IMG/VR virus record: IMGVR_UViG_3300033149_005670
Span: 1 to 11,688 of that record
Source: a virus
Length of the DNA: 11,688 bases
Reading direction: 5' to 3' (one strand)
The number at the start of each line of letters is the position of its first letter. The first letter of the stretch is position 1. The notes below the pieces were generated by a model that searched no databases, was not told the DNA's origin, and saw only the letters and a program-made list of their open reading frames with translations. Of this stretch, positions 1-11,688 are shown piece after piece. The position numbers and the translations under genes are program-made.

Positions 1-114
1 ACTCAAAACACTGATACTGCTCTTGGCTCTGGATGTGTTGCAGCAGACCATGGGACAGCTTCTACTGACCAAGTAATAAATGTATGTTATGGAACAGGAG
101 ACCCGCCAACTGCA
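1..114. repeat. Terminal overlap, copy 1 (identical to 11575..11688); signature of circular closure
   Basis: Base-by-base comparison gives 114/114 identity with the last 114 nt of the window, so the unit length is 11,574 bp. The repeat lies inside a coding frame. Confidence 0.95.
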
Positions 115-1929: not shown

Positions 1930-1967
1930 AAGGATTAGTTGAGGCAGAGTTGATCTTGGAAGAAGAA

Positions 1968-1975
1968 TTTAAAAA
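1968..1975 (+). promoter_or_regulatory. TATA-like box (tttaaaaa), 21 nt upstream of ATG 1997
   Basis: Same 8-mer + 21 nt + ATG geometry as five other sites, with a purine-rich stretch (aagaagaa) immediately upstream. Confidence 0.55.
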
Positions 1976-1996
1976 TGTCAAAGAGGAAGATTTGAA

Positions 1997-2122
1997 ATGG
2001 TGGTAAGCTGTGAATGTGCTGGTTTGCTGTTTTTGGATATATGTGCAGGTATAGGTCTACTTCTAATGATTTATGTAGCTTGGTTAAAATATCAGCAACT
2101 TGTTGTAGAGGGTAAGTTATAA
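1997..2122 (+). CDS. Micro-ORF, 41 aa, single predicted transmembrane helix (MVVSCECAGLLFLDICAGIGLLLMIYVAWLKYQQLVVEGKL); not in the track
   Basis: Hand translation shows a hydrophobic core. The promoter-spacing rule places a leaderless start exactly at this ATG. Confidence 0.45.
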   Translation: MVVSCECAGLLFLDICAGIGLLLMIYVAWLKYQQLVVEGKL

Positions 2123-2128
2123 TTCTGT

Positions 2129-2159
2129 AGTGGGTAATAGTGTGTGTGTCTCTCTCTCT
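2129..2159. repeat. agtgggtaa + (TG)4(TC)5 dinucleotide tract
   Basis: agtgggtaatag tgtgtgtg tctctctctct lies directly after the stop at 2122 and mirrors the elements at 816..833. Confidence 0.7.
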
Positions 2160-2168
2160 AAAAGTGTC

Positions 2169-2211
2169 TAATTAGTATTATTAAATATTAGTATTTTAGA
2201 GTATATTAGTA
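2169..2211. repeat. Three direct copies of a 9-mer (taattagta / atattagta / atattagta), iteron-like
   Basis: The attagta cores are at 2171, 2187 and 2205 (spacing 16 and 18 nt) within a very AT-rich stretch. Confidence 0.6.
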
Positions 2212-2275
2212 GCATATCAAGTAAGTGGTAACACTTTCTAGACTAAGATACGAATAAAAACCTTAGTTTGGCAAT

Positions 2276-2308
2276 ACCTTATTACCTTATTCTTAAGACA
2301 GACAGACA
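2276..2308. repeat. Tandem accttatt x2 followed by (gaca)3
   Basis: accttatt is at 2276..2283 and 2284..2291, and gacagacagaca is at 2297..2308. ccttattct recurs at 2372..2380. Confidence 0.6.
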
Positions 2309-2383
2309 CACTAACTTAGGCCTCTTTCATCCTTCGACTAAACATCAGAATCTTTTTGAGTATAGTTGTATCCTTATTCTACC

Positions 2384-2539
2384 TTAACGACACAGCAAGC
2401 AGACTTCCATAAGCTTGTCATTACAGAAGACTATACGATCACACTTAGAACATCTTTTTGCGACTATAGCTGATGTTGCGATTAAGGGTATTTCTTTGAG
2501 TTCTTTTAAGTTTATCTCATCGTGTAGTCTTTCTCCCAT
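2384..2539 (-). CDS. Micro-gene on the minus strand: 51-aa zinc-ribbon protein (C-x2-C-x13-C-x2-C), a candidate regulator
   Basis: Hand reverse-translation gives MGERLHDEINLKELKEIPLIATSAIVAKRCSKCDRIVFCNDKLMEVCLLCR*. A TATA-like box sits exactly 21 nt upstream on the minus strand. It is the only convincing minus-strand gene. Confidence 0.55.
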   Translation of the reverse strand: MGERLHDEINLKELKEIPLIATSAIVAKRCSKCDRIVFCNDKLMEVCLLCR

Positions 2540-2560
2540 AGATTTCTGTAGAATAGGATG

Positions 2561-2568
2561 TATATAAA
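2561..2568 (-). promoter_or_regulatory. TATA-like box (tttatata on the minus strand), 21 nt upstream of the zinc-ribbon ATG
   Basis: + strand tatataaa at 2561..2568, then 21 nt (2540..2560), then cat (= ATG) at 2537..2539. Confidence 0.55.
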
Positions 2569-2625
2569 AGTTGTTTACTACTCATGAGTTTTTCTTTACT
2601 TTTAGGAACATCACTTATCAATAGT

Positions 2626-2633
2626 TTTATATA
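2626..2633 (+). promoter_or_regulatory. TATA-like box (tttatata) with no downstream ORF; candidate promoter of a non-coding transcript
   Basis: It is divergent from the zinc-ribbon promoter. The 21-nt rule predicts a start at about G2655, and no ORF longer than about 25 codons follows on the + strand before 3188. Confidence 0.45.
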
Positions 2634-2645
2634 TTTTAGAAACTT

Positions 2646-2666
2646 CAGACTTGCGTAGCAAGTCTG
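2646..2666. promoter_or_regulatory. Perfect 9-bp inverted repeat with a 3-nt centre (cagacttgc gta gcaagtctg); candidate operator
   Basis: The reverse complement of 2646..2654 equals 2658..2666. The centre (2656) coincides with the start predicted from the 2626 TATA box. The half-site cagactt also occurs at 2403..2409. Confidence 0.5.
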
Positions 2667-2751
2667 TCTACCTAAAACATAAAAAGACTATTTAGTTCTG
2701 CTCCTAAAAGTAACAAAACAAACCTTTCTTGACTTACACCCCCCCTTTTCT

Positions 2752-2823
2752 TTAGTGAACTTGGCCTTCTTGGCCAAGTGGGCTCTATAGAGCCCATCCC
2801 TTCAAGAAGAAGGGATTCACTAA
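2752..2823 (+). other. Gap-free four-way junction (cloverleaf-like but not tRNA); could form in RNA or as extruded DNA
   Basis: The closing stem is 2752..2759 with 2816..2823 (8 bp). Hairpin 1 is 2760..2766 / 2772..2778 (loop ttctt). Hairpin 2 is 2779..2785 / 2790..2796 (loop tata). Hairpin 3 is 2797..2803 / 2809..2815 (loop aagaa). All pairs are Watson-Crick and no base is unpaired between helices. Confidence 0.75.
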
Positions 2824-2836
2824 CCCAGGACTTCTT

Positions 2837-2873
2837 CTTCTGGCCTTAGTGAGCCTCTGCTTCTGGCCTTAGT
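2837..2873 (+). repeat. 14-nt direct repeat cttctggccttagt, two copies 23 nt apart
   Basis: Copies are at 2837..2850 and 2860..2873. The uggccu core of either copy can pair with aggcca at 2908..2913. Confidence 0.7.
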
Positions 2874-3030
2874 AGTTATCCGCTACACCGGGTAACTCAA
2901 GATGAATAGGCCATTTTGTAAAGCTGTTCCATAAGAAATAGAGCATAGGTAACCTCCATTTCCAGTGGAACTCAGAATATTAGCGAGAGTTGTCACTACA
3001 CAATAGTGATTTGCTTAACCCTCCAGAAAC

Positions 3031-3057
3031 TTTTTAAAATTTTTAATATTTTAAAAA
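3031..3057 (+). terminator. Oligo-T runs within an AT-only inverted repeat (tttttaaaa ... ttttaaaaa)
   Basis: There is a T5 run at 3031..3035 and a T4 run at 3041..3044. 3031..3039 is the reverse complement of 3049..3057. This could be an oligo-T terminator or an easily melted duplex. Confidence 0.3.
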
Positions 3058-3158
3058 TCTCATTTCACTTATTATATAGAGTGAGGTGGATAGTTCATCT
3101 TGATATCCAAAACATCACTCAACTTTTTAATTTTTTTAAAAAAAGAAAAAACAAAAAG

Positions 3159-3166
3159 TATTTAAA
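3159..3166 (+). promoter_or_regulatory. TATA-like box (tatttaaa), 21 nt upstream of ATG 3188; promoter of the packaging/structural operon
   Basis: The 8-mer and spacing are identical to the site at 7982..7989, with an A-rich stretch (acaaaaag) upstream. Confidence 0.6.
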
Positions 3167-3187
3167 GAAGTTCGCATAACTCTTTTA

Positions 3188-3397
3188 ATGGGAATCAGGA
3201 AAAAGATGACTGCTGTCATAGGAAACAAGAATCAATCACGATGGAACACCATAAAGCAAAACTCAGAAGCGATTTTGGAACAGGCAAATATGCAGGTAAT
3301 GCTTCAAACAGAGATTCTAAAGATAGCAAAGAAGAAGTTAAAAGGAACAAAGGAGATAGATATATCAAACTTGATAAGTGGCAAGAAGAAGTCTTAA
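3188..3397 (+). CDS. Small basic protein (69 aa), overlapping the terminase N-terminus in another frame
   Basis: The ATG is exactly at the leaderless position predicted by the promoter rule. It overlaps 3241..3397 of the terminase ORF, and its function is unknown. Confidence 0.4.
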   Translation: MGIRKKMTAVIGNKNQSRWNTIKQNSEAILEQANMQVMLQTEILKIAKKKLKGTKEIDISNLISGKKKS

Positions 3398-4674
3398 ATG
3401 CAAAAGGACATTTCTTATTGTGCACTGGTAGACAAGTAGGTAAAACAACTATTTTTGCGATTAAAGCAGCTGAAAGAATGATATCTCAAAAGGGGTGCAG
3501 AATTATAGCTGTTTCTCTTACAGAAGATCAGGCCTTTCTTATGAAAACCATGGTTCAGGATTACCTGGAAAAGAAGTATAAATCTTATTTGAAAGTTAAG
3601 AAAGAGCATAAACCAACAAAAAACAGAATTATTCTAAATAATGGAAGTTCATACATCGTTAGACCTGTTGGAAATACTGGAGATGCAGTTAGAGGGTTTA
3701 CAGGCGATGTTTTAATTATAGACGAGGCGAGTAGAATGCCTGAAAGTGTTTTTATAGCTTCAAAACCAACATTACTAACAACTGGTGGAGATATTTGGAT
3801 GTGCTCGACTCCTTTTGGAAAGAAAGGCTACTTTTACGAATCCTGGCTTAATAAAAACAAAAGATTCAAAGTTTTTCACATTTCAAGCGAGAAAGTCATC
3901 CAGGATAGAGAGATAAGCGAAAGTTGGAGTGAGGAAAAAAGAGAATCTGCCATAAGAATGCTTGAAGAAGAGAAAAAAGACATGTCTACACTTCAATATG
4001 CCCAGGAATATTTAGGAATGTTTACAGAAGATCTAAGGCAGTTCTTTCCTGATGAGTTAATAGAACAGGTCTGCACAGGCAAGAGAAATCAGCCTTTTAA
4101 TTTAGCTCCTAAGTTCTATATGGGAGTGGATATTGCAAGATTAGGAGAGGATAAAAGTGTCTTTGCAATAGTTAACAAAATACGAGATAATCTATTCCAT
4201 CAGGTAGAAAATATAGTAACATCAAAGAAAAGAACTACTGAAACCTTTGATAAGATAGTTGATTTAGAGCAGATGTGGAAGTTTAAACAAATAGGAATAG
4301 ATGCAGGTTCAGGAAGTTTAGGTGTTGGGGTGTTTGACTTCCTTTTAAGAGAACCAATTATCAGGAAAAAGGTTATAGACCTGGATAATGCAAGAATAAT
4401 GAAAGATAGCAGAGGGGAAAAAACAGGAAGATGGTTTAAAGAAGCTTCTTATGCTAATATGTTAATGTTGATGGAAAAAGGAAGAGTTAGACTTCTTGAT
4501 GATGATGAGATAAAACTCTCTTTGAAATCAGTTCAATATGAATACTCTATTAAGCCAGGACAGAAGTCTAAGATGATAATATTTGGAAGAAATCATGATA
4601 TTGTGGAAGCAATTCAAAGAGCACTATGGTTAGCAAATCAGAAAACTATAAATACACAGATAAGTTACATTTAA
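3241..4674 (+). CDS. terL: Terminase large subunit (packaging ATPase plus nuclease)
   Basis: Walker A is CTGRQVGKTT and Walker B is DVLIIDEAS, followed by a CSTPFG coupling motif. The C-terminal RNase H-like nuclease has acidic motifs (MGVDIARLGEDKSV, IGIDAGSGSLG, HDIVEAIQ). Length is 477 aa. Confidence 0.93.
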   Translation: MEHHKAKLRSDFGTGKYAGNASNRDSKDSKEEVKRNKGDRYIKLDKWQEEVLNAKGHFLLCTGRQVGKTTIFAIKAAERMISQKGCRIIAVSLTEDQAFLMKTMVQDYLEKKYKSYLKVKKEHKPTKNRIILNNGSSYIVRPVGNTGDAVRGFTGDVLIIDEASRMPESVFIASKPTLLTTGGDIWMCSTPFGKKGYFYESWLNKNKRFKVFHISSEKVIQDREISESWSEEKRESAIRMLEEEKKDMSTLQYAQEYLGMFTEDLRQFFPDELIEQVCTGKRNQPFNLAPKFYMGVDIARLGEDKSVFAIVNKIRDNLFHQVENIVTSKKRTTETFDKIVDLEQMWKFKQIGIDAGSGSLGVGVFDFLLREPIIRKKVIDLDNARIMKDSRGEKTGRWFKEASYANMLMLMEKGRVRLLDDDEIKLSLKSVQYEYSIKPGQKSKMIIFGRNHDIVEAIQRALWLANQKTINTQISYI

Positions 4675-6925: not shown

Positions 6926-7921
6926 ATGACAACTTATACAAGGATGAAAAAAGCAACTTCTTTTCAGGAAAAGGAGAGGCTCAGGAAAAAGCACGAGGAA
7001 GAACTGGCTAAAAAGAGAGAAGCAAAAGCTCAGAAACTTGCAGAAGCTCAGGAAATAGGCAGAACAGCTCCAAGTTTTTCTGAGAAGGAACTGGGCAAAG
7101 AGGGGTATAAACAAGCTAAACTTGCTGCACAAGCACAAGTTCTTAAATCACAAGCACAGGCTACAAGAGAAGCAGAAGAAGCAAGAAGAAAAGAAGCAAA
7201 GGCTTTTTTAGAAGAAAGAGGGTTTTTTGAAGAAGCAGCTCCTGAAAGAGTAAGTTTAGCTCCTGAGGAAAGATTAGGGGGACAAATTCCTGTTGCAGGT
7301 GGAATATTAGGAGCAAGAAAAAGTTTAGTTCCAGAGCAAGGCACAATATTAAATTTAGCTAAAGATAAAGGATGGATAAAAGGAGAAGTAAAAGGGGAAG
7401 GTATTTTAATAGAGACTCCTGAGACTTTAAGAGAACAGGCTTTAAATGAAATACAAAAGGAAGTTATTAAAGAAGGTTTATCAGCAGGAGAAAGATTTGG
7501 TTCTTTAGTTGAGGGGATTCCTGTTATAGGTTCTCTTGCCAGTAAATATGCAACAGGATTAATAGAAGATCCTAAAGGAAATATAGAAACTATTGTTTCT
7601 GAAATAGCATCAGAAAGAGAAAGAGCATCTGTTTTAGCTGAAAAGGTAGCTACAGGAAAAATAAGCCCTTATGTTTTCTATGAGGAAATAGATGTTATGG
7701 AAGAAAATATAGCTGCATTAGAGCAAAGAATAAAACTTTTAATAAATTCTTCTCCTGCTTTGAGAGTAAATGCTGATAAAGTTCATAGAATAGAAGAACA
7801 GATTTTAAGGGCAAAGGAAAGAATATATATGGCCAAACAACTTGCAGCAGGGGGTATGGTAGTAGAGCCCACTGACACAAGTATATATTTTGAATTGGAG
7901 AAATTAAAAAGTGAAAGCTAA
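6926..7921 (+). CDS. Coiled-coil, Ala/Glu/Lys-rich protein (331 aa); scaffold or internal virion protein candidate
   Basis: A long ORF with charged heptad-like segments that sits between the portal and capsid modules. Confidence 0.8.
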   Translation: MTTYTRMKKATSFQEKERLRKKHEEELAKKREAKAQKLAEAQEIGRTAPSFSEKELGKEGYKQAKLAAQAQVLKSQAQATREAEEARRKEAKAFLEERGFFEEAAPERVSLAPEERLGGQIPVAGGILGARKSLVPEQGTILNLAKDKGWIKGEVKGEGILIETPETLREQALNEIQKEVIKEGLSAGERFGSLVEGIPVIGSLASKYATGLIEDPKGNIETIVSEIASERERASVLAEKVATGKISPYVFYEEIDVMEENIAALEQRIKLLINSSPALRVNADKVHRIEEQILRAKERIYMAKQLAAGGMVVEPTDTSIYFELEKLKSES

Positions 7922-11042: not shown

Positions 11043-11688
11043 AAAAACTGCGGGCACACAAACACTGAGATTATATTGGAAACTGGTTGAAAGAAAAAGT
11101 GATGATTCAGAAGTTGTTATCGGAACCTCAGTTGTTAGTAACAAGATAACAACTGGCAAAAATTCATATATTATTCCTTTAACTTTATCAGCAGACTACG
11201 ATATAGCGAGCGATAGTTATGTTGTTGGGAAGATTTATGCTGATGTATCTGGGAGCGGCTTAGCACCAAGCGTTACTTTATACTATGAAGGAGATTCTCA
11301 CTCTCATTGGGAAATCCCAGTTAACACAGAAATACTTAATAATTTTTATGTTAATGTAGATGGCGACACAATGACTGGTAATCTTACAATGCCCGCTGAG
11401 TCTTTTGTTGGTCCAAGTTCTACTGCTGGGATATATTTTAAAGACGGCGATGTCGGCATCGGGACAACTAACCCATCGGAGAAATTGGATGTAGATGGAA
11501 ACATTGCTGTTAGTGGGACAGTTGATGGAATAGATATTGCAACTGATGTGACAGCGAACACAAATGCAAGGCATACTCAAAACACTGATACTGCTCTTGG
11601 CTCTGGATGTGTTGCAGCAGACCATGGGACAGCTTCTACTGACCAAGTAATAAATGTATGTTATGGAACAGGAGACCCGCCAACTGCA
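11020..11688 (+). CDS. Tail-fibre-like protein, C-terminal reading frame (+1 relative to 10248..11042; no start codon; continues to 159 after circular closure)
   Basis: Frame 1 is open from 11020 to the window end, with no ATG, GTG or TTG until 11371. It encodes VDGDTMTGNLTM and a third GDVGIGTTNPSEKLDV module. Confidence 0.75.
11575..11688. repeat. Terminal overlap, copy 2 (identical to 1..114)
   Basis: Same comparison. The overlap may extend further but is cut by the window edge. Confidence 0.95.

What the first reader, a model, noticed from the sequence alone, without database searches (positions are those of the whole stretch)
2752..2823. Gap-free four-way junction: three adjacent 7-bp hairpins closed by an 8-bp stem, in a non-coding G+C-rich island upstream of the terminase gene
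Seventy-two consecutive nucleotides partition exactly into four Watson-Crick helices. They are ttagtgaa/ttcactaa, cttggcc/ggccaag, tgggctc/gagccca and tcccttc/gaaggga. The loops are 5, 4 and 5 nt, and no base is unpaired at the junction. The three internal palindromes have unrelated sequences. This argues that the fold itself is selected, rather than a repeated protein-binding site. By hand count the segment is about 47% G+C in a visibly AT-rich genome. G+C-rich islands are a classic signature of structural RNAs in AT-rich archaeal genomes. It is not a tRNA, because the loops are too small and there are no D/T-loop signatures. I have three non-exclusive hypotheses. (1) It is the core of a virus-encoded structured RNA, for example a packaging RNA analogous to phi29 pRNA; this genome has no recognisable small terminase and the element lies about 420 nt upstream of terL. 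(2) It is a DNA-level cruciform acting as an origin or pac site, analogous to the internal palindromes of parvovirus ITRs. (3) It mimics a Holliday junction and is recognised by junction-binding proteins. I do not recognise it as any described family.
Basis: partly seen in the sequence, partly recalled or inferred. Interest (0 to 1): 0.85.

Follow-up and report, generated by a model that had tools for sequence, protein, structure and literature searches.

The report
Conserved DNA cloverleaf in viral origin
The 72-base "four-way junction" is real and is conserved, with every stem re-written yet always perfectly paired, in a large family of tiny (~11.6 kb) archaeal head-tail viruses, where it behaves like a folded-DNA signal beside host-type replication-origin boxes rather than like an RNA gene.

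Summary
Window 2752-2823 folds on either strand into an 8-bp stem closing three perfect hairpins, with no unpaired junction base (z about -7 to -10).

The fold is conserved. Thirteen independent relatives (TerL 34-61% identical) carry, at the same place upstream of terL, three hairpins (loops TYCKT / TATA / AMGRA) or two hairpins (both loops TCGA), mostly closed by a 2-11 bp stem. The stems are unrelated in sequence. All 349 pairs are Watson-Crick, with no G-T.

No tRNA or Rfam family matches.

The element lies in a ~1.25 kb non-coding region of a circular-map 11.6 kb genome, apparently between divergent promoters. About 130 nt downstream is an exact 19-nt match to the archaeal origin recognition box (ORB). 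In two relatives an inverted ORB pair sits between the same C-tract flanks.

Best reading: a cis-acting DNA fold (compound cruciform or single-strand cloverleaf) in an Orc1/Cdc6-type viral origin and control region. A packaging (cos/pac) role is the main rival. A pRNA-like RNA is disfavoured but not excluded. The function is inferred, not shown.

I found no description of such an element in the searches I ran.

The parts
2591..2718 (+). 128-nt imperfect palindrome. Its tip is a perfect 9-bp hairpin, 2646-2666 CAGACTTGC-GTA-GCAAGTCTG, which contains the DNA mini-hairpin motif GCGTAGC (2653-2659).
   Evidence: inverted repeat I1. DNA fold -23.1 kcal/mol, z -6.3. Triloop hairpins with G-N-A loops on the terL-sense strand occur in 13 distinct relatives, against 5 on the other strand. 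The GCGNAGC motif is described in PMC13037366.
2739..2745 (+). C7 tract forming the 5' flank of the cassette. Relatives have ..CCCCCCTCTT at the same place.
2752..2759 (.). 5' arm of the closing stem (TTAGTGAA).
2760..2778 (.). Hairpin 1: CTTGGCC-TTCTT-GGCCAAG (8 bp if read as 2759-2779).
   Evidence: Homologues listed.
2779..2796 (.). Hairpin 2: TGGGCTC-TATA-GAGCCCA, an 18-bp perfect palindrome. The apex CTC-TATA-GAG is conserved in relatives.
2797..2815 (.). Hairpin 3: TCCCTTC-AAGAA-GAAGGGA. Its loop is the exact complement of loop 1.
2816..2823 (.). 3' arm of the closing stem (TTCACTAA). It can alternatively pair with TTAGTGA at 2847-2853.
   Evidence: inverted repeat I4.
2833..2873 (+). 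Two 18-nt direct repeats, TCTTCTTCTGGCCTTAGT and TCTGCTTCTGGCCTTAGT, 23 nt apart. Each ends in a copy of the 5'-arm sequence and looks iteron-like.
   Evidence: direct repeat D3. L006 has analogous repeats CTTCTTCTGATCCGCCT x2.
2875..2896 (.). Imperfect copy (GTTATCCGCTACACCGGGTAAC) of the family's 22-bp palindrome GTTATTCGGnnnnCCGAATAAC. It looks like an operator.
2926..2947 (+). Degenerate ORB-like element GTTCCATAAGAAATAGAGCATA, inverted relative to the next part.
   Evidence: By eye it is similar to the ORB consensus; it scores below 15/22.
2950..2971 (-). Origin recognition box GTTCCACTGGAAATGGAGGTTA.
   Evidence: exact match to GTTCCASTGGAAATGRAGG; 0.02 matches expected with up to 3 mismatches.. 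Consensus taken from PMC4153887 Table 2.
2983..3009 (+). Conserved motif GCGAGAGTT followed by the hairpin TCACTA-cacaa-TAGTGA.
   Evidence: Conserved in L021, L025, L026, L027, L051.
3020..3166 (.). A+T-rich stretch (23-26% G+C) containing T5AA-type repeats and a TATA-like box (TATTTAAA, 3159-3166) about 25 nt before the ATG at 3188. It is a candidate unwinding element and late promoter.
   Evidence: Both the promoter and the unwinding-element readings are inference.
3188..3397 (+). Conserved 69-aa ORF overlapping the terL start. It is a possible packaging or recognition subunit.
   Evidence: 60-69% identity in L071 and L021. No family hit and no database homologue.
3241..4674 (+). Large terminase gene (terL).
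   Evidence: PF03237, PF03354..

Best explanation
The 72-nt segment is one instance of a conserved cis-acting DNA element. It consists of a cassette of two or three abutting perfect palindromes, usually enclosed by a further inverted repeat. As single-stranded or extruded DNA the cassette folds into a gap-free three- or four-way junction (a DNA 'cloverleaf').

It sits in the large non-coding control region of a ~11.6 kb circular-map archaeal head-tail virus that encodes no recognisable replication protein. It lies between C-tract flanks. About 130 nt away is a canonical Orc1/Cdc6 origin recognition box. It is also close to an A+T-rich stretch.

Proposed mechanism:
1. Host Orc1/Cdc6 binds the ORB(s) and the neighbouring duplex is opened.
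2. Each strand of the cassette snaps into the same cloverleaf. This works because the stems are perfect palindromes and the loops are arranged with pseudo-dyad symmetry (TTCTT - TATA - AAGAA reads the same on both strands).
3. The folded junction holds the region open and displays loop sequences that are read by a structure-specific factor. This would be a single-strand initiation (priming or loading) signal usable on both strands. It is comparable to the hairpin signals of the phage G4 complementary-strand origin or to ssiA/ssiB of RSF1010.

Shown here:
- The fold exists.
- It is conserved with complete covariation.
- The pairing rules are those of DNA, or of both strands together.
- The loops and flanks are conserved.
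- It is adjacent to ORB elements, and an ORB pair can occupy the same slot.

Inferred only:
- Extrusion or folding in vivo.
- The identity of the reader protein.
- A role in initiation.
For: (1) Conservation with covariation. There are ten three-hairpin and three two-hairpin cassettes in relatives with 34-61% TerL identity. All lie within a few hundred bases upstream of terL (73-499 nt to the estimated start). All 349 pairs are Watson-Crick. On six equal-length cassettes, cells are 100% paired, 16 of 18 pairs have double-sided changes, none has a one-sided change, and 0 of 500 shuffles reach this.

(2) DNA-type pairing. There is no G-T in 349 pairs, which has P<1e-7 if G-U occurred at 5%. A G-U-tolerant scan finds no further cassettes, so this is not an ascertainment effect. 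Both strands fold identically.

(3) Loops 1 and 3 are mutually complementary at the consensus level (TYCKT / AMGRA). They are complementary 5/5 in the window, L108, L103 and L071, and they covary (TTCTT/AAGAA versus TTCGT/ACGAA). Middle loops are mostly self-complementary (TATA, TCGA).

(4) Origin context. There is an exact 19-nt ORB match at 2953-2971(-) (consensus from PMC4153887). ORB-like elements occur in many relatives' control regions. In L143 and L172 an inverted ORB pair lies between the same flanks (CCCCCTCT...ATTCACCCC) that enclose cassettes elsewhere. An A+T-rich stretch lies next to it. No replication gene was found in the genome.

(5) A GCGTAGC mini-hairpin motif lies about 90 nt upstream. 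Such motifs are reported at phage priming and initiation sites (PMC13037366).

(6) No promoter-like box lies directly upstream of the cassette in any relative, and no T-run follows it.
Against: - There are no experimental data and no read-level data.
- Arms of 7-9 bp are short for spontaneous cruciform extrusion.
- The cassette is not universal in the family. About 14 of 39 distinct control regions have it. Others have a single hairpin or ORB pairs.
- ORB-like boxes are not detectable in every cassette-bearing relative: none scoring 15 or more in the control regions of L026, L074, L083, L090, L097 or L111.
- Loop polarity relative to terL is kept in 9 of 10 three-hairpin cassettes. A purely symmetric two-strand model does not require this.
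- Adjacency to terL fits packaging equally well.
- The host is uncertain: the NCBI bin is Heimdallarchaeaceae, while sequence hints point to DPANN.
Confidence: 0.45

Rival explanations
1. It is a packaging initiation site (cos or pac). In this model the extruded junction is the structure-specific recognition or cleavage site for the large terminase, whose nuclease has an RNase H/RuvC-like fold. The conserved 69-aa ORF may help. This would replace sequence recognition by a classical small terminase.
For: - The cassette always lies a few hundred bases upstream of the terL operon.
- No small terminase is found by Pfam or PHROGs.
- Copies of the closing-arm sequence are iterated next to the junction: window 2847-2853 and 2870-2876, and three tandem copies in L083.
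- Branched DNA is the natural substrate of RuvC-fold nucleases. This rests on established knowledge and was not tested here.
Against: - No termini information exists. Complete contigs end at arbitrary places with 114-127-nt assembler overlaps.
- The cassette is replaced by an ORB pair in the same slot in L143 and L172 and by simple hairpins elsewhere.
- The ORB and mini-hairpin context points to replication.
Confidence: 0.22
2. It is a structured non-coding RNA: a pRNA-like or tRNA-shaped RNA with a kissing interaction between loops 1 and 3.
For: - The fold is very stable as RNA.
- Loops 1 and 3 are complementary and covary.
- The 72-nt size and four-helix layout resemble a cloverleaf.
- TATA-like boxes exist farther upstream (2560-2570, 2622-2638), so read-through cannot be excluded.
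Against: - No G-U in 349 pairs.
- The fold is identical on both strands.
- No Rfam or tRNA hit.
- No promoter-like box within about 30 nt upstream and no T-run terminator in any relative.
- The number of hairpins varies (1, 2 or 3) and the closing stem can be absent (L067).
- A neighbouring module (the ORB pair) is found in inverted orientation in L068. This fits DNA sites, not one RNA.
Confidence: 0.12
3. It is a cluster of ordinary B-form operator palindromes bound by dimeric regulators (for example the RHH protein encoded next to the region in L006). No folded state would be involved.
For: - The region contains a bona fide operator-like 22-bp palindrome that recurs in the family and in DPANN genomes.
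- An RHH/CcdA-like gene is adjacent in L006.
- The middle hairpin apex CTC-TATA-GAG is conserved.
Against: - In hairpins 1 and 3 the arms are unrelated between relatives while the centres are conserved: mean pairwise identity of the five loop-proximal arm bases is 0.34-0.38. This is the opposite of a half-site pattern.
- The exact abutment of palindromes and the enclosing inverted repeat are not needed for B-form binding.
Confidence: 0.1
4. It is a by-product without function: palindromes generated and homogenised by template switching or hairpin-primed repair in a recombination-prone region, or a selfish palindromic insert.
For: - Perfect stems could be produced mechanically.
- Assemblies of the closest relative break in this region in 4 of 4 contigs, which suggests instability or heterogeneity.
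- Tandem duplications of the closing arm are seen.
Against: - Loops, hairpin number, flanks and position are conserved across TerL 34-61% identity.
- There is only one cassette per genome and none elsewhere in the genomes.
Confidence: 0.06

Closest known systems
Single-strand initiation signals: the phage G4/St-1/alpha3 complementary-strand origin (three hairpins) and ssiA/ssiB of RSF1010 oriV
   Same: - Tandem DNA hairpins in a non-coding origin region.
- Function depends on the folded single strand.
- GCGNAGC or GCGNNAGC mini-hairpin motifs are present (PMC13037366).
- RSF1010 places two signals on opposite strands. Here one pseudo-symmetric cassette gives the same fold on both strands.
   Different: - Those hairpins are separate, imperfect and strand-specific, and occur in ssDNA phages or plasmids of bacteria.
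- Here the hairpins abut without a gap, are enclosed by a stem into a multi-way junction, are perfectly Watson-Crick, and sit in a dsDNA archaeal virus next to ORB boxes.
- No primase relationship was tested.
Parvovirus (AAV) inverted terminal repeat: a T-shaped hairpin
   Same: - A stem enclosing two short abutting palindromes, forming a three-way junction. The two-hairpin variants (L069, L083, L090) have exactly this shape.
- The small arms carry mutually complementary loops (from my own knowledge of AAV2).
- It is a DNA-level fold read by a replication protein.
   Different: - AAV ITRs are at the ends of a linear ssDNA genome and are served by an HUH Rep nickase with GAGC repeats and a terminal resolution site.
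- Here the element is internal in a circular map, no HUH protein was found, and the window's version has three arms.
Archaeal oriC-type origins: inverted ORB elements flanking an A+T-rich unwinding element, bound by Orc1/Cdc6
   Same: - Exact ORB consensus match at 2953-2971 (PMC4153887).
- An inverted degenerate partner.
- An adjacent A+T-rich stretch.
- C/G-string flanks.
- An ORB pair occupies the cassette slot in L143 and L172.
   Different: - As far as I know, and from the literature searches, no described archaeal origin contains a multi-hairpin junction.
- No orc1/cdc6 gene is adjacent.
- Binding was not tested.
Cruciform-forming inverted repeat (IR-II/ICR II) in the double-strand origin of pT181/pC221 rolling-circle plasmids
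   Same: A DNA cruciform at an origin whose extrusion presents a loop to the initiator (PMC5775427 and PMC5062986, listed).
   Different: That is a single hairpin, nicked by a Rep protein. There is no Rep and no nick-site motif here.
phi29 pRNA
   Same: A multi-helix junction with complementary loops, located near packaging genes.
   Different: - pRNA is a transcribed RNA containing G-U pairs and bulges.
- It works with a phi29-type ATPase and a protein-primed genome.
- No match to any Rfam family was found, and the terminase here is T4-type.

Membership tests
tRNA / tRNA-like gene | Cloverleaf with 7-nt anticodon and T loops and conserved D/T residues, detectable by ARAGORN | tested here: not met
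   ARAGORN finds 0 genes in the window. The loops are 5, 4 and 5 nt.
Any curated RNA family (Rfam 15) | Covariance-model score at or above the gathering threshold | tested here: not met
   No hit at gathering thresholds over the whole window. The permissive search of 2400-3250 gives only chance-level miRNA and snoRNA hits. None is centred on the junction, although weak MIR319 hits at 2804-2865 (E about 2-3) overlap its 3' end.
phi29-type pRNA | A transcribed RNA with wobble pairs and bulges and its own promoter | tested here: not met
   0 G-U in 349 pairs. No promoter-like site directly upstream. Whether it is transcribed could not be tested.
phi29-type pRNA | Partnered with a phi29-type packaging ATPase and a protein-primed linear genome | tested here: not met
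   The terminase is T4-type (PF03237). The genome has a circular map.
Parvovirus-type terminal hairpin (ITR) | Located at the termini of a linear genome | tested here: not met
   The element is internal. Contigs close into circles with assembler overlaps at arbitrary positions.
Parvovirus-type terminal hairpin (ITR) | HUH Rep nickase with its binding repeats | tested here: not met
   No Rep or HUH family among the window ORFs.
Parvovirus-type terminal hairpin (ITR) | A stem enclosing abutting short palindromes (T/Y shape) | tested here: met
   L069, L083 and L090 form gap-free three-way junctions. The window forms a four-way junction.
Archaeal Orc1/Cdc6-dependent origin | ORB consensus element(s) | tested here: met
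   2953-2971(-) matches GTTCCASTGGAAATGRAGG exactly; 0.02 matches expected with up to 3 mismatches. Consensus from PMC4153887.
Archaeal Orc1/Cdc6-dependent origin | Inverted ORBs next to an A+T-rich unwinding element | tested here: inconclusive
   The inverted partner at 2926-2947 is degenerate. The A+T-rich stretch at 3020-3166 lies on one side only.
Archaeal Orc1/Cdc6-dependent origin | Orc1/Cdc6 binding and initiation at the site | not testable with these tools
   Needs EMSA or ChIP and origin mapping.
Single-strand initiation signal (G4 ori_c / ssi type) | Stable hairpins in single-stranded DNA, often with a GCGNAGC or GCGNNAGC mini-hairpin | tested here: met
   DNA folds with z -6 to -9.6. 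GCGTAGC at 2653-2659. Motif described in PMC13037366.
Single-strand initiation signal (G4 ori_c / ssi type) | Primase recognition and primer synthesis at the hairpins | not testable with these tools
   A biochemical assay is required.
cos/pac packaging site | Virion DNA ends, or the first headful cut, map to the site | not testable with these tools
   Only assembled contigs were available. Contig ends are assembler overlaps.
cos/pac packaging site | Location just upstream of the terminase genes, with repeats for terminase binding | tested here: met
   418 nt upstream of terL. Two 18-nt direct repeats at 2833-2873.

The most novel reading that the evidence does not exclude
A compound DNA cruciform ('DNA cloverleaf') is an obligatory, structure-read component of the replication origin or packaging site of a widespread family of minimal archaeal head-tail viruses. 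Because its loops are pseudo-symmetric, one element would give the same folded signal on both strands. It could work in either of two ways. It could recruit host priming or helicase-loading factors beside Orc1-bound ORBs. Or it could be cut, like a Holliday junction, by the RuvC-fold terminase in place of small-terminase-guided recognition.
Probability: 0.35. Interest if true: 0.85.

Novelty: new variant of a known kind. Interest (0 to 1): 0.68.

Why it matters
Folded-DNA signals are well known in ssDNA phages, rolling-circle plasmids and parvoviruses. As far as I know, they have not been described in a dsDNA archaeal virus or next to Orc1/Cdc6 recognition boxes.

This element offers an unusually clean natural example of selection on DNA secondary structure: hundreds of base pairs, complete covariation, and no wobble pairs.

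The viruses that carry it have circular maps of roughly 11.3-12.9 kb and no recognisable replication gene. The ~1 kb control region must therefore hold everything needed to hijack host replication and to be packaged.

If the cloverleaf is read by host initiation or priming factors, it gives a compact and experimentally tractable handle on archaeal, and by extension eukaryote-like, origin firing. If it is read by terminase, it would show how packaging specificity can be achieved without a small terminase.

Tried and rejected
- BLAST of 2500-3250 against GenBank phages: no match.
- Exact 34-mer of the element in viral contigs: none.
- TerL search in species-representative genomes: no relative, so no provirus or host link.
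- First idea that L067 carries the cassette inverted, because its stems resemble the window's in reverse order. Rejected after more instances showed that its loops fit the common forward pattern TYCKT / TATN / AMGRA. Only L071 has the reverse loop order.
- Idea that contig ends mark physical genome ends (cos). All four assemblies with TerL P0002 end 315-459 nt upstream of terL, but at four different positions, two of them within or at the edge of hairpins. Complete contigs close on 38-127-nt overlaps elsewhere. These are assembly breaks, not termini.
- An alternative pairing of the 3' half of the junction with 2846-2864 (I4) suggested a switch. The equivalent complementarity is not evident in L006, so I did not pursue it.
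- GC skew is dominated by the single coding strand and is not informative for an origin.
- The 69-aa ORF was searched for homologues, to test a small-terminase role: nothing found.
- The MAFFT alignment of all ten cassettes misplaces those with 4-nt loops. Pair counting was therefore done on the six cassettes of equal length and by script on all of them.
- In one search the L090 and L111 entries used coordinates from my reverse-complemented copies. Those two folds are meaningless and are not used.
- Literature searches found no description of this element or of this virus family's control region.
Full report
**1. The observation**

The sequence at 2752-2823 is exactly as described.
- An 8-bp stem, TTAGTGAA/TTCACTAA, encloses three abutting perfect hairpins.
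- The hairpins are CTTGGCC-TTCTT-GGCCAAG, TGGGCTC-TATA-GAGCCCA and TCCCTTC-AAGAA-GAAGGGA.
- No junction base is unpaired.
- G+C is 47.2% against 35.3% for the window.

The four-helix fold is the minimum-energy structure on both strands.
- With RNA parameters the energy is -42.5 kcal/mol, z -6.8 and -8.1.
- With DNA parameters it is -24.9 kcal/mol, z -7.3 and -9.6.
- No shuffle reached these values.

Three adjacent perfect hairpins never arose in 300 Markov simulations of the window or in 100 simulations with the island's composition. ARAGORN finds no tRNA. Rfam gives nothing at gathering thresholds, and the permissive search gives only chance-level hits.

**2. What the window is**

The first 114 bases repeat exactly at the end, so the window is a closed ~11,574-bp genome.

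It encodes a T4-type large terminase (3241-4674), a portal, an HK97-type capsid protein and a tail fibre-like protein. Apart from these there are only a few small ORFs without family matches. No replication protein was recognised.

Its TerL is recorded at NCBI under a Candidatus Heimdallarchaeaceae MAG. More than 1,300 relatives exist, many on contigs of 11.3-12.9 kb. Several of those contigs also close on assembler-type overlaps at arbitrary positions.

In the ten relatives whose context I examined, 0.85-1.0 kb of non-coding DNA lies between small minus-strand genes and the terL operon. In the window this region is about 1930-3187.

**3. Conservation of the fold**

Scanning the regions upstream of terL in relatives found the same architecture repeatedly.
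- Three-hairpin cassettes: L006, L026, L067, L071, L074, L097, L103, L108 and L111.
- Two-hairpin cassettes: L069, L083/L109 and L090.
- TerL identity to the window is only 34-61%.

The stems are unrelated in sequence. The mean identity of loop-proximal arm bases is 0.34-0.38 for hairpins 1 and 3. Yet every one of 349 base pairs in the 13 independent cassettes, closing stems included, is Watson-Crick.

On six cassettes of equal length:
- 100% of cells are paired.
- 16 of 18 pairs show changes on both sides.
- No pair shows a one-sided change.
- No shuffle (0/500) and no slid register comes close.

A scan that tolerated G-T pairs found no additional cassettes, so the perfection is not an artefact of how I searched.

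The features that are conserved in sequence are the following.
- The loops: TYCKT, then TATA-like, then AMGRA. In the two-hairpin type both loops are TCGA within CTCGAG.
- The apex of the middle hairpin: CTC-TATA-GAG.
- The flanks: a C-tract such as CCCCCCTCTT on the 5' side and (A)ATTCACCCCCC on the 3' side.

Loops 1 and 3 are complementary at the consensus level. They are complementary 5/5 in four genomes, and they covary: TTCTT/AAGAA versus TTCGT/ACGAA.

**4. What is and is not the conserved unit**

The closing stem varies: 11 bp in L006, 9 in L111, 8 in the window, 7 in L097 and L108, 6+4 in L074, 5 in L026, 3 in L071, 2 in L103 and none in L067. The two-hairpin forms have closing stems of 7-9 bp and are gap-free three-way junctions.

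In other relatives the same slot holds different contents.
- L076 has a single hairpin inside a 10-bp stem.
- L021/L065, the closest relative at 79% TerL identity, has a single 13-bp hairpin.
- L081, L091 and L032 have other single hairpins.

The selected feature is therefore a compact, perfectly paired fold-back cassette at this position. The window's four-way junction is one elaborate form of it.

**5. DNA or RNA**

Several observations argue for a DNA-level fold, or for constraints on both strands at once.
- There are no wobble pairs in 349 pairs. This has P<1e-7 even at a 5% G-U rate.
- Both strands give the same fold with the same loop order, because loops 1 and 3 are complements and the middle loop is self-complementary.
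- Hairpin number and enclosure vary among relatives.
- No promoter-like box lies within about 30 nt upstream and no T-run follows, in any relative.
- The cassette appears to lie between two divergent TATA-like boxes. One, near 2561-2568, would serve the minus-strand ORF 2384-2539. The other, at 3159-3166, would serve the ATG at 3188. This is inference from the sequence.
- A neighbouring conserved module occurs in inverted orientation and at a different place in L068. That is normal for DNA sites and awkward for a single structured RNA.

**6. The surroundings point to a replication origin**

The neighbouring module at 2926-2971 contains the sequence GTTCCACTGGAAATGGAGGTTA on the minus strand (2950-2971). 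Nineteen of its bases match the archaeal origin recognition box exactly.
- Published consensus sequences are GTTCCAGTGGAAATGG-AGGGGTA and CTTCCAGTGGAAACGAAAGGGGT (PMC4153887, Table 2). PMC1904270 gives background on ORB and mini-ORB elements.
- The search pattern GTTCCASTGGAAATGRAGG hits once with no mismatch. The expected number of hits is 0.02 even when three mismatches are allowed.
- A degenerate inverted copy abuts it.
- An A+T-rich stretch (23-26% G+C) follows it.

ORB-like boxes recur in the control regions of many relatives.

The most telling observation is in L143 and L172. There, an inverted ORB pair sits between the very flanks (CCCCCTCT...ATTCACCCC) that enclose hairpin cassettes in other genomes.

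About 90 nt upstream of the cassette there is a 9-bp hairpin with the motif GCGTAGC. It tops a 128-nt imperfect palindrome.
- GCGNAGC 'mini-hairpins' are exceptionally stable DNA folds.
- They are reported at phage and plasmid priming or initiation sites: G4, St-1, alpha3, RSF1010 ssiA and N4 promoters (PMC13037366; PMC3201870, listed).
- In relatives, G-N-A triloops on the terL-sense strand outnumber those on the other strand 13 to 5. This is a bias, not a rule.

Two 18-nt direct repeats (2833-2873) and an operator-like palindrome (2875-2896) complete a typical origin and control layout.

**7. Mechanism proposed**

I commit to the following, with confidence 0.45. The cassette is a cis-acting folded-DNA signal of an Orc1/Cdc6-type viral origin.
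- When the adjacent duplex is opened, both strands fold into equivalent cloverleaves.
- These stabilise the open state.
- They also present conserved loops to a structure-specific reader, such as a priming or loading factor.

Only the anatomy, its conservation, the pairing rules and the ORB context are shown. Folding in vivo, the reader protein and the effect on initiation are inferred.

The main rival (0.22) is a cos/pac site read or cut by the RuvC-fold terminase.
- In favour: its position upstream of terL, the lack of a recognisable small terminase, and the iterated copies of the closing arm (window 2847-2853 and 2870-2876; three tandem copies in L083).
- The two roles are not mutually exclusive in a genome this small.

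The remaining rivals are less likely.
- A structured RNA: 0.12.
- Plain B-form operators: 0.10.
- A functionless by-product: 0.06.

**8. Comparison with known systems**

The element works most like single-strand initiation hairpins (G4 ori_c, RSF1010 ssiA/ssiB). In shape it most resembles the T-shaped AAV terminal repeat.

It fails the defining tests of the parvoviral family: it is not terminal and there is no HUH Rep. It also fails those of pRNA and of tRNA.

It meets the sequence test for an archaeal ORB-type origin context. Binding cannot be tested here.

I found no description of a multi-hairpin junction at an archaeal or archaeal-virus origin. I therefore file it as a new variant of a known kind (folded-DNA origin or packaging signals), not as a member of any named family.

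**9. Caveats**

- The host is uncertain. The family's 22-bp palindrome also occurs in intergenic DNA of Woesearchaeota and Nanoarchaeota MAG contigs. That hints at DPANN hosts despite the Heimdallarchaeaceae bin label.
- ORB-like boxes were not detectable in every cassette-bearing relative.
- Arms of 7-9 bp are short for spontaneous cruciform extrusion. Folding may therefore require strand separation.
- Everything functional rests on comparative sequence evidence.

Noticed in passing
window 1-114 and 11575-11688; whole window: The window is a complete circular-map genome of about 11,574 bp. It belongs to a very small head-tail virus. It has only a handful of small non-structural ORFs and no recognisable replication gene. 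The family is large: more than 1,300 TerL relatives, many on 11.3-12.9 kb contigs.
   Followed up: partly
window 2875-2896; L115 4630, L127 6413, L121 2511 and 2555: The 22-bp palindrome GTTATTCGGnnnnCCGAATAAC is conserved upstream of terL in 34 viral contigs. It also occurs in intergenic DNA of Woesearchaeota and Nanoarchaeota MAG contigs that carry no viral genes. It may be a host transcription-factor site. It hints at DPANN hosts rather than the Heimdallarchaeaceae label at NCBI.
   Followed up: partly
window 3188-3397 (+): A 69-aa ORF starts about 25 nt after a TATA-like box and overlaps the first 157 nt of terL in another frame. It is 60-69% identical in L071 and L021. It has no family hit and is not called in the protein database. 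It could be a small terminase-like subunit or a sign of frameshifting.
   Followed up: partly
L083 326-390 versus L109: In L083 the 3' closing arm plus flank (GGATCTATGAATTCACCCTGG) is present in three tandem copies. The near-identical L109 has one copy. The window likewise repeats its 5'-arm sequence twice downstream (2847-2853, 2870-2876). The closing arms seem prone to duplication, or they provide alternative pairing partners.
   Followed up: no
L001, L021, L065, L066 (first 1-460 nt): All four independent assemblies of the closest relative (TerL 79% identical) break 315-459 nt upstream of terL, inside the hairpin region and at different positions. One of these contigs is 35 kb long, about three genome lengths. 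This suggests population heterogeneity or palindrome-induced assembly failure.
   Followed up: partly
L068 3403-3452 versus window 2926-2971: In L068 the inverted ORB-pair module is present in the opposite orientation and on the other side of the 22-bp palindrome. Modules of the control region are shuffled and inverted between relatives.
   Followed up: partly
L116 about 1480-1560; L091 about 7485-7511; L032 1344-1370: Some relatives have perfect 10-12 bp hairpins whose loops are homopolymers (C7 or G7) in the same control region.
   Followed up: no
window 2983-3020 and the equivalent in L021, L025, L026, L027, L051: A conserved motif GCGAGAGTT is followed by a short hairpin and by AACCC, just upstream of the A+T-rich late-promoter stretch. 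Its function is unknown.
   Followed up: no
L074 1097-1510; L006 2792-3184 (-): The early regions differ between relatives. L074 encodes a Dam-type methylase. L006 encodes an RHH/CcdA-like DNA-binding protein directly beside the control region.
   Followed up: no
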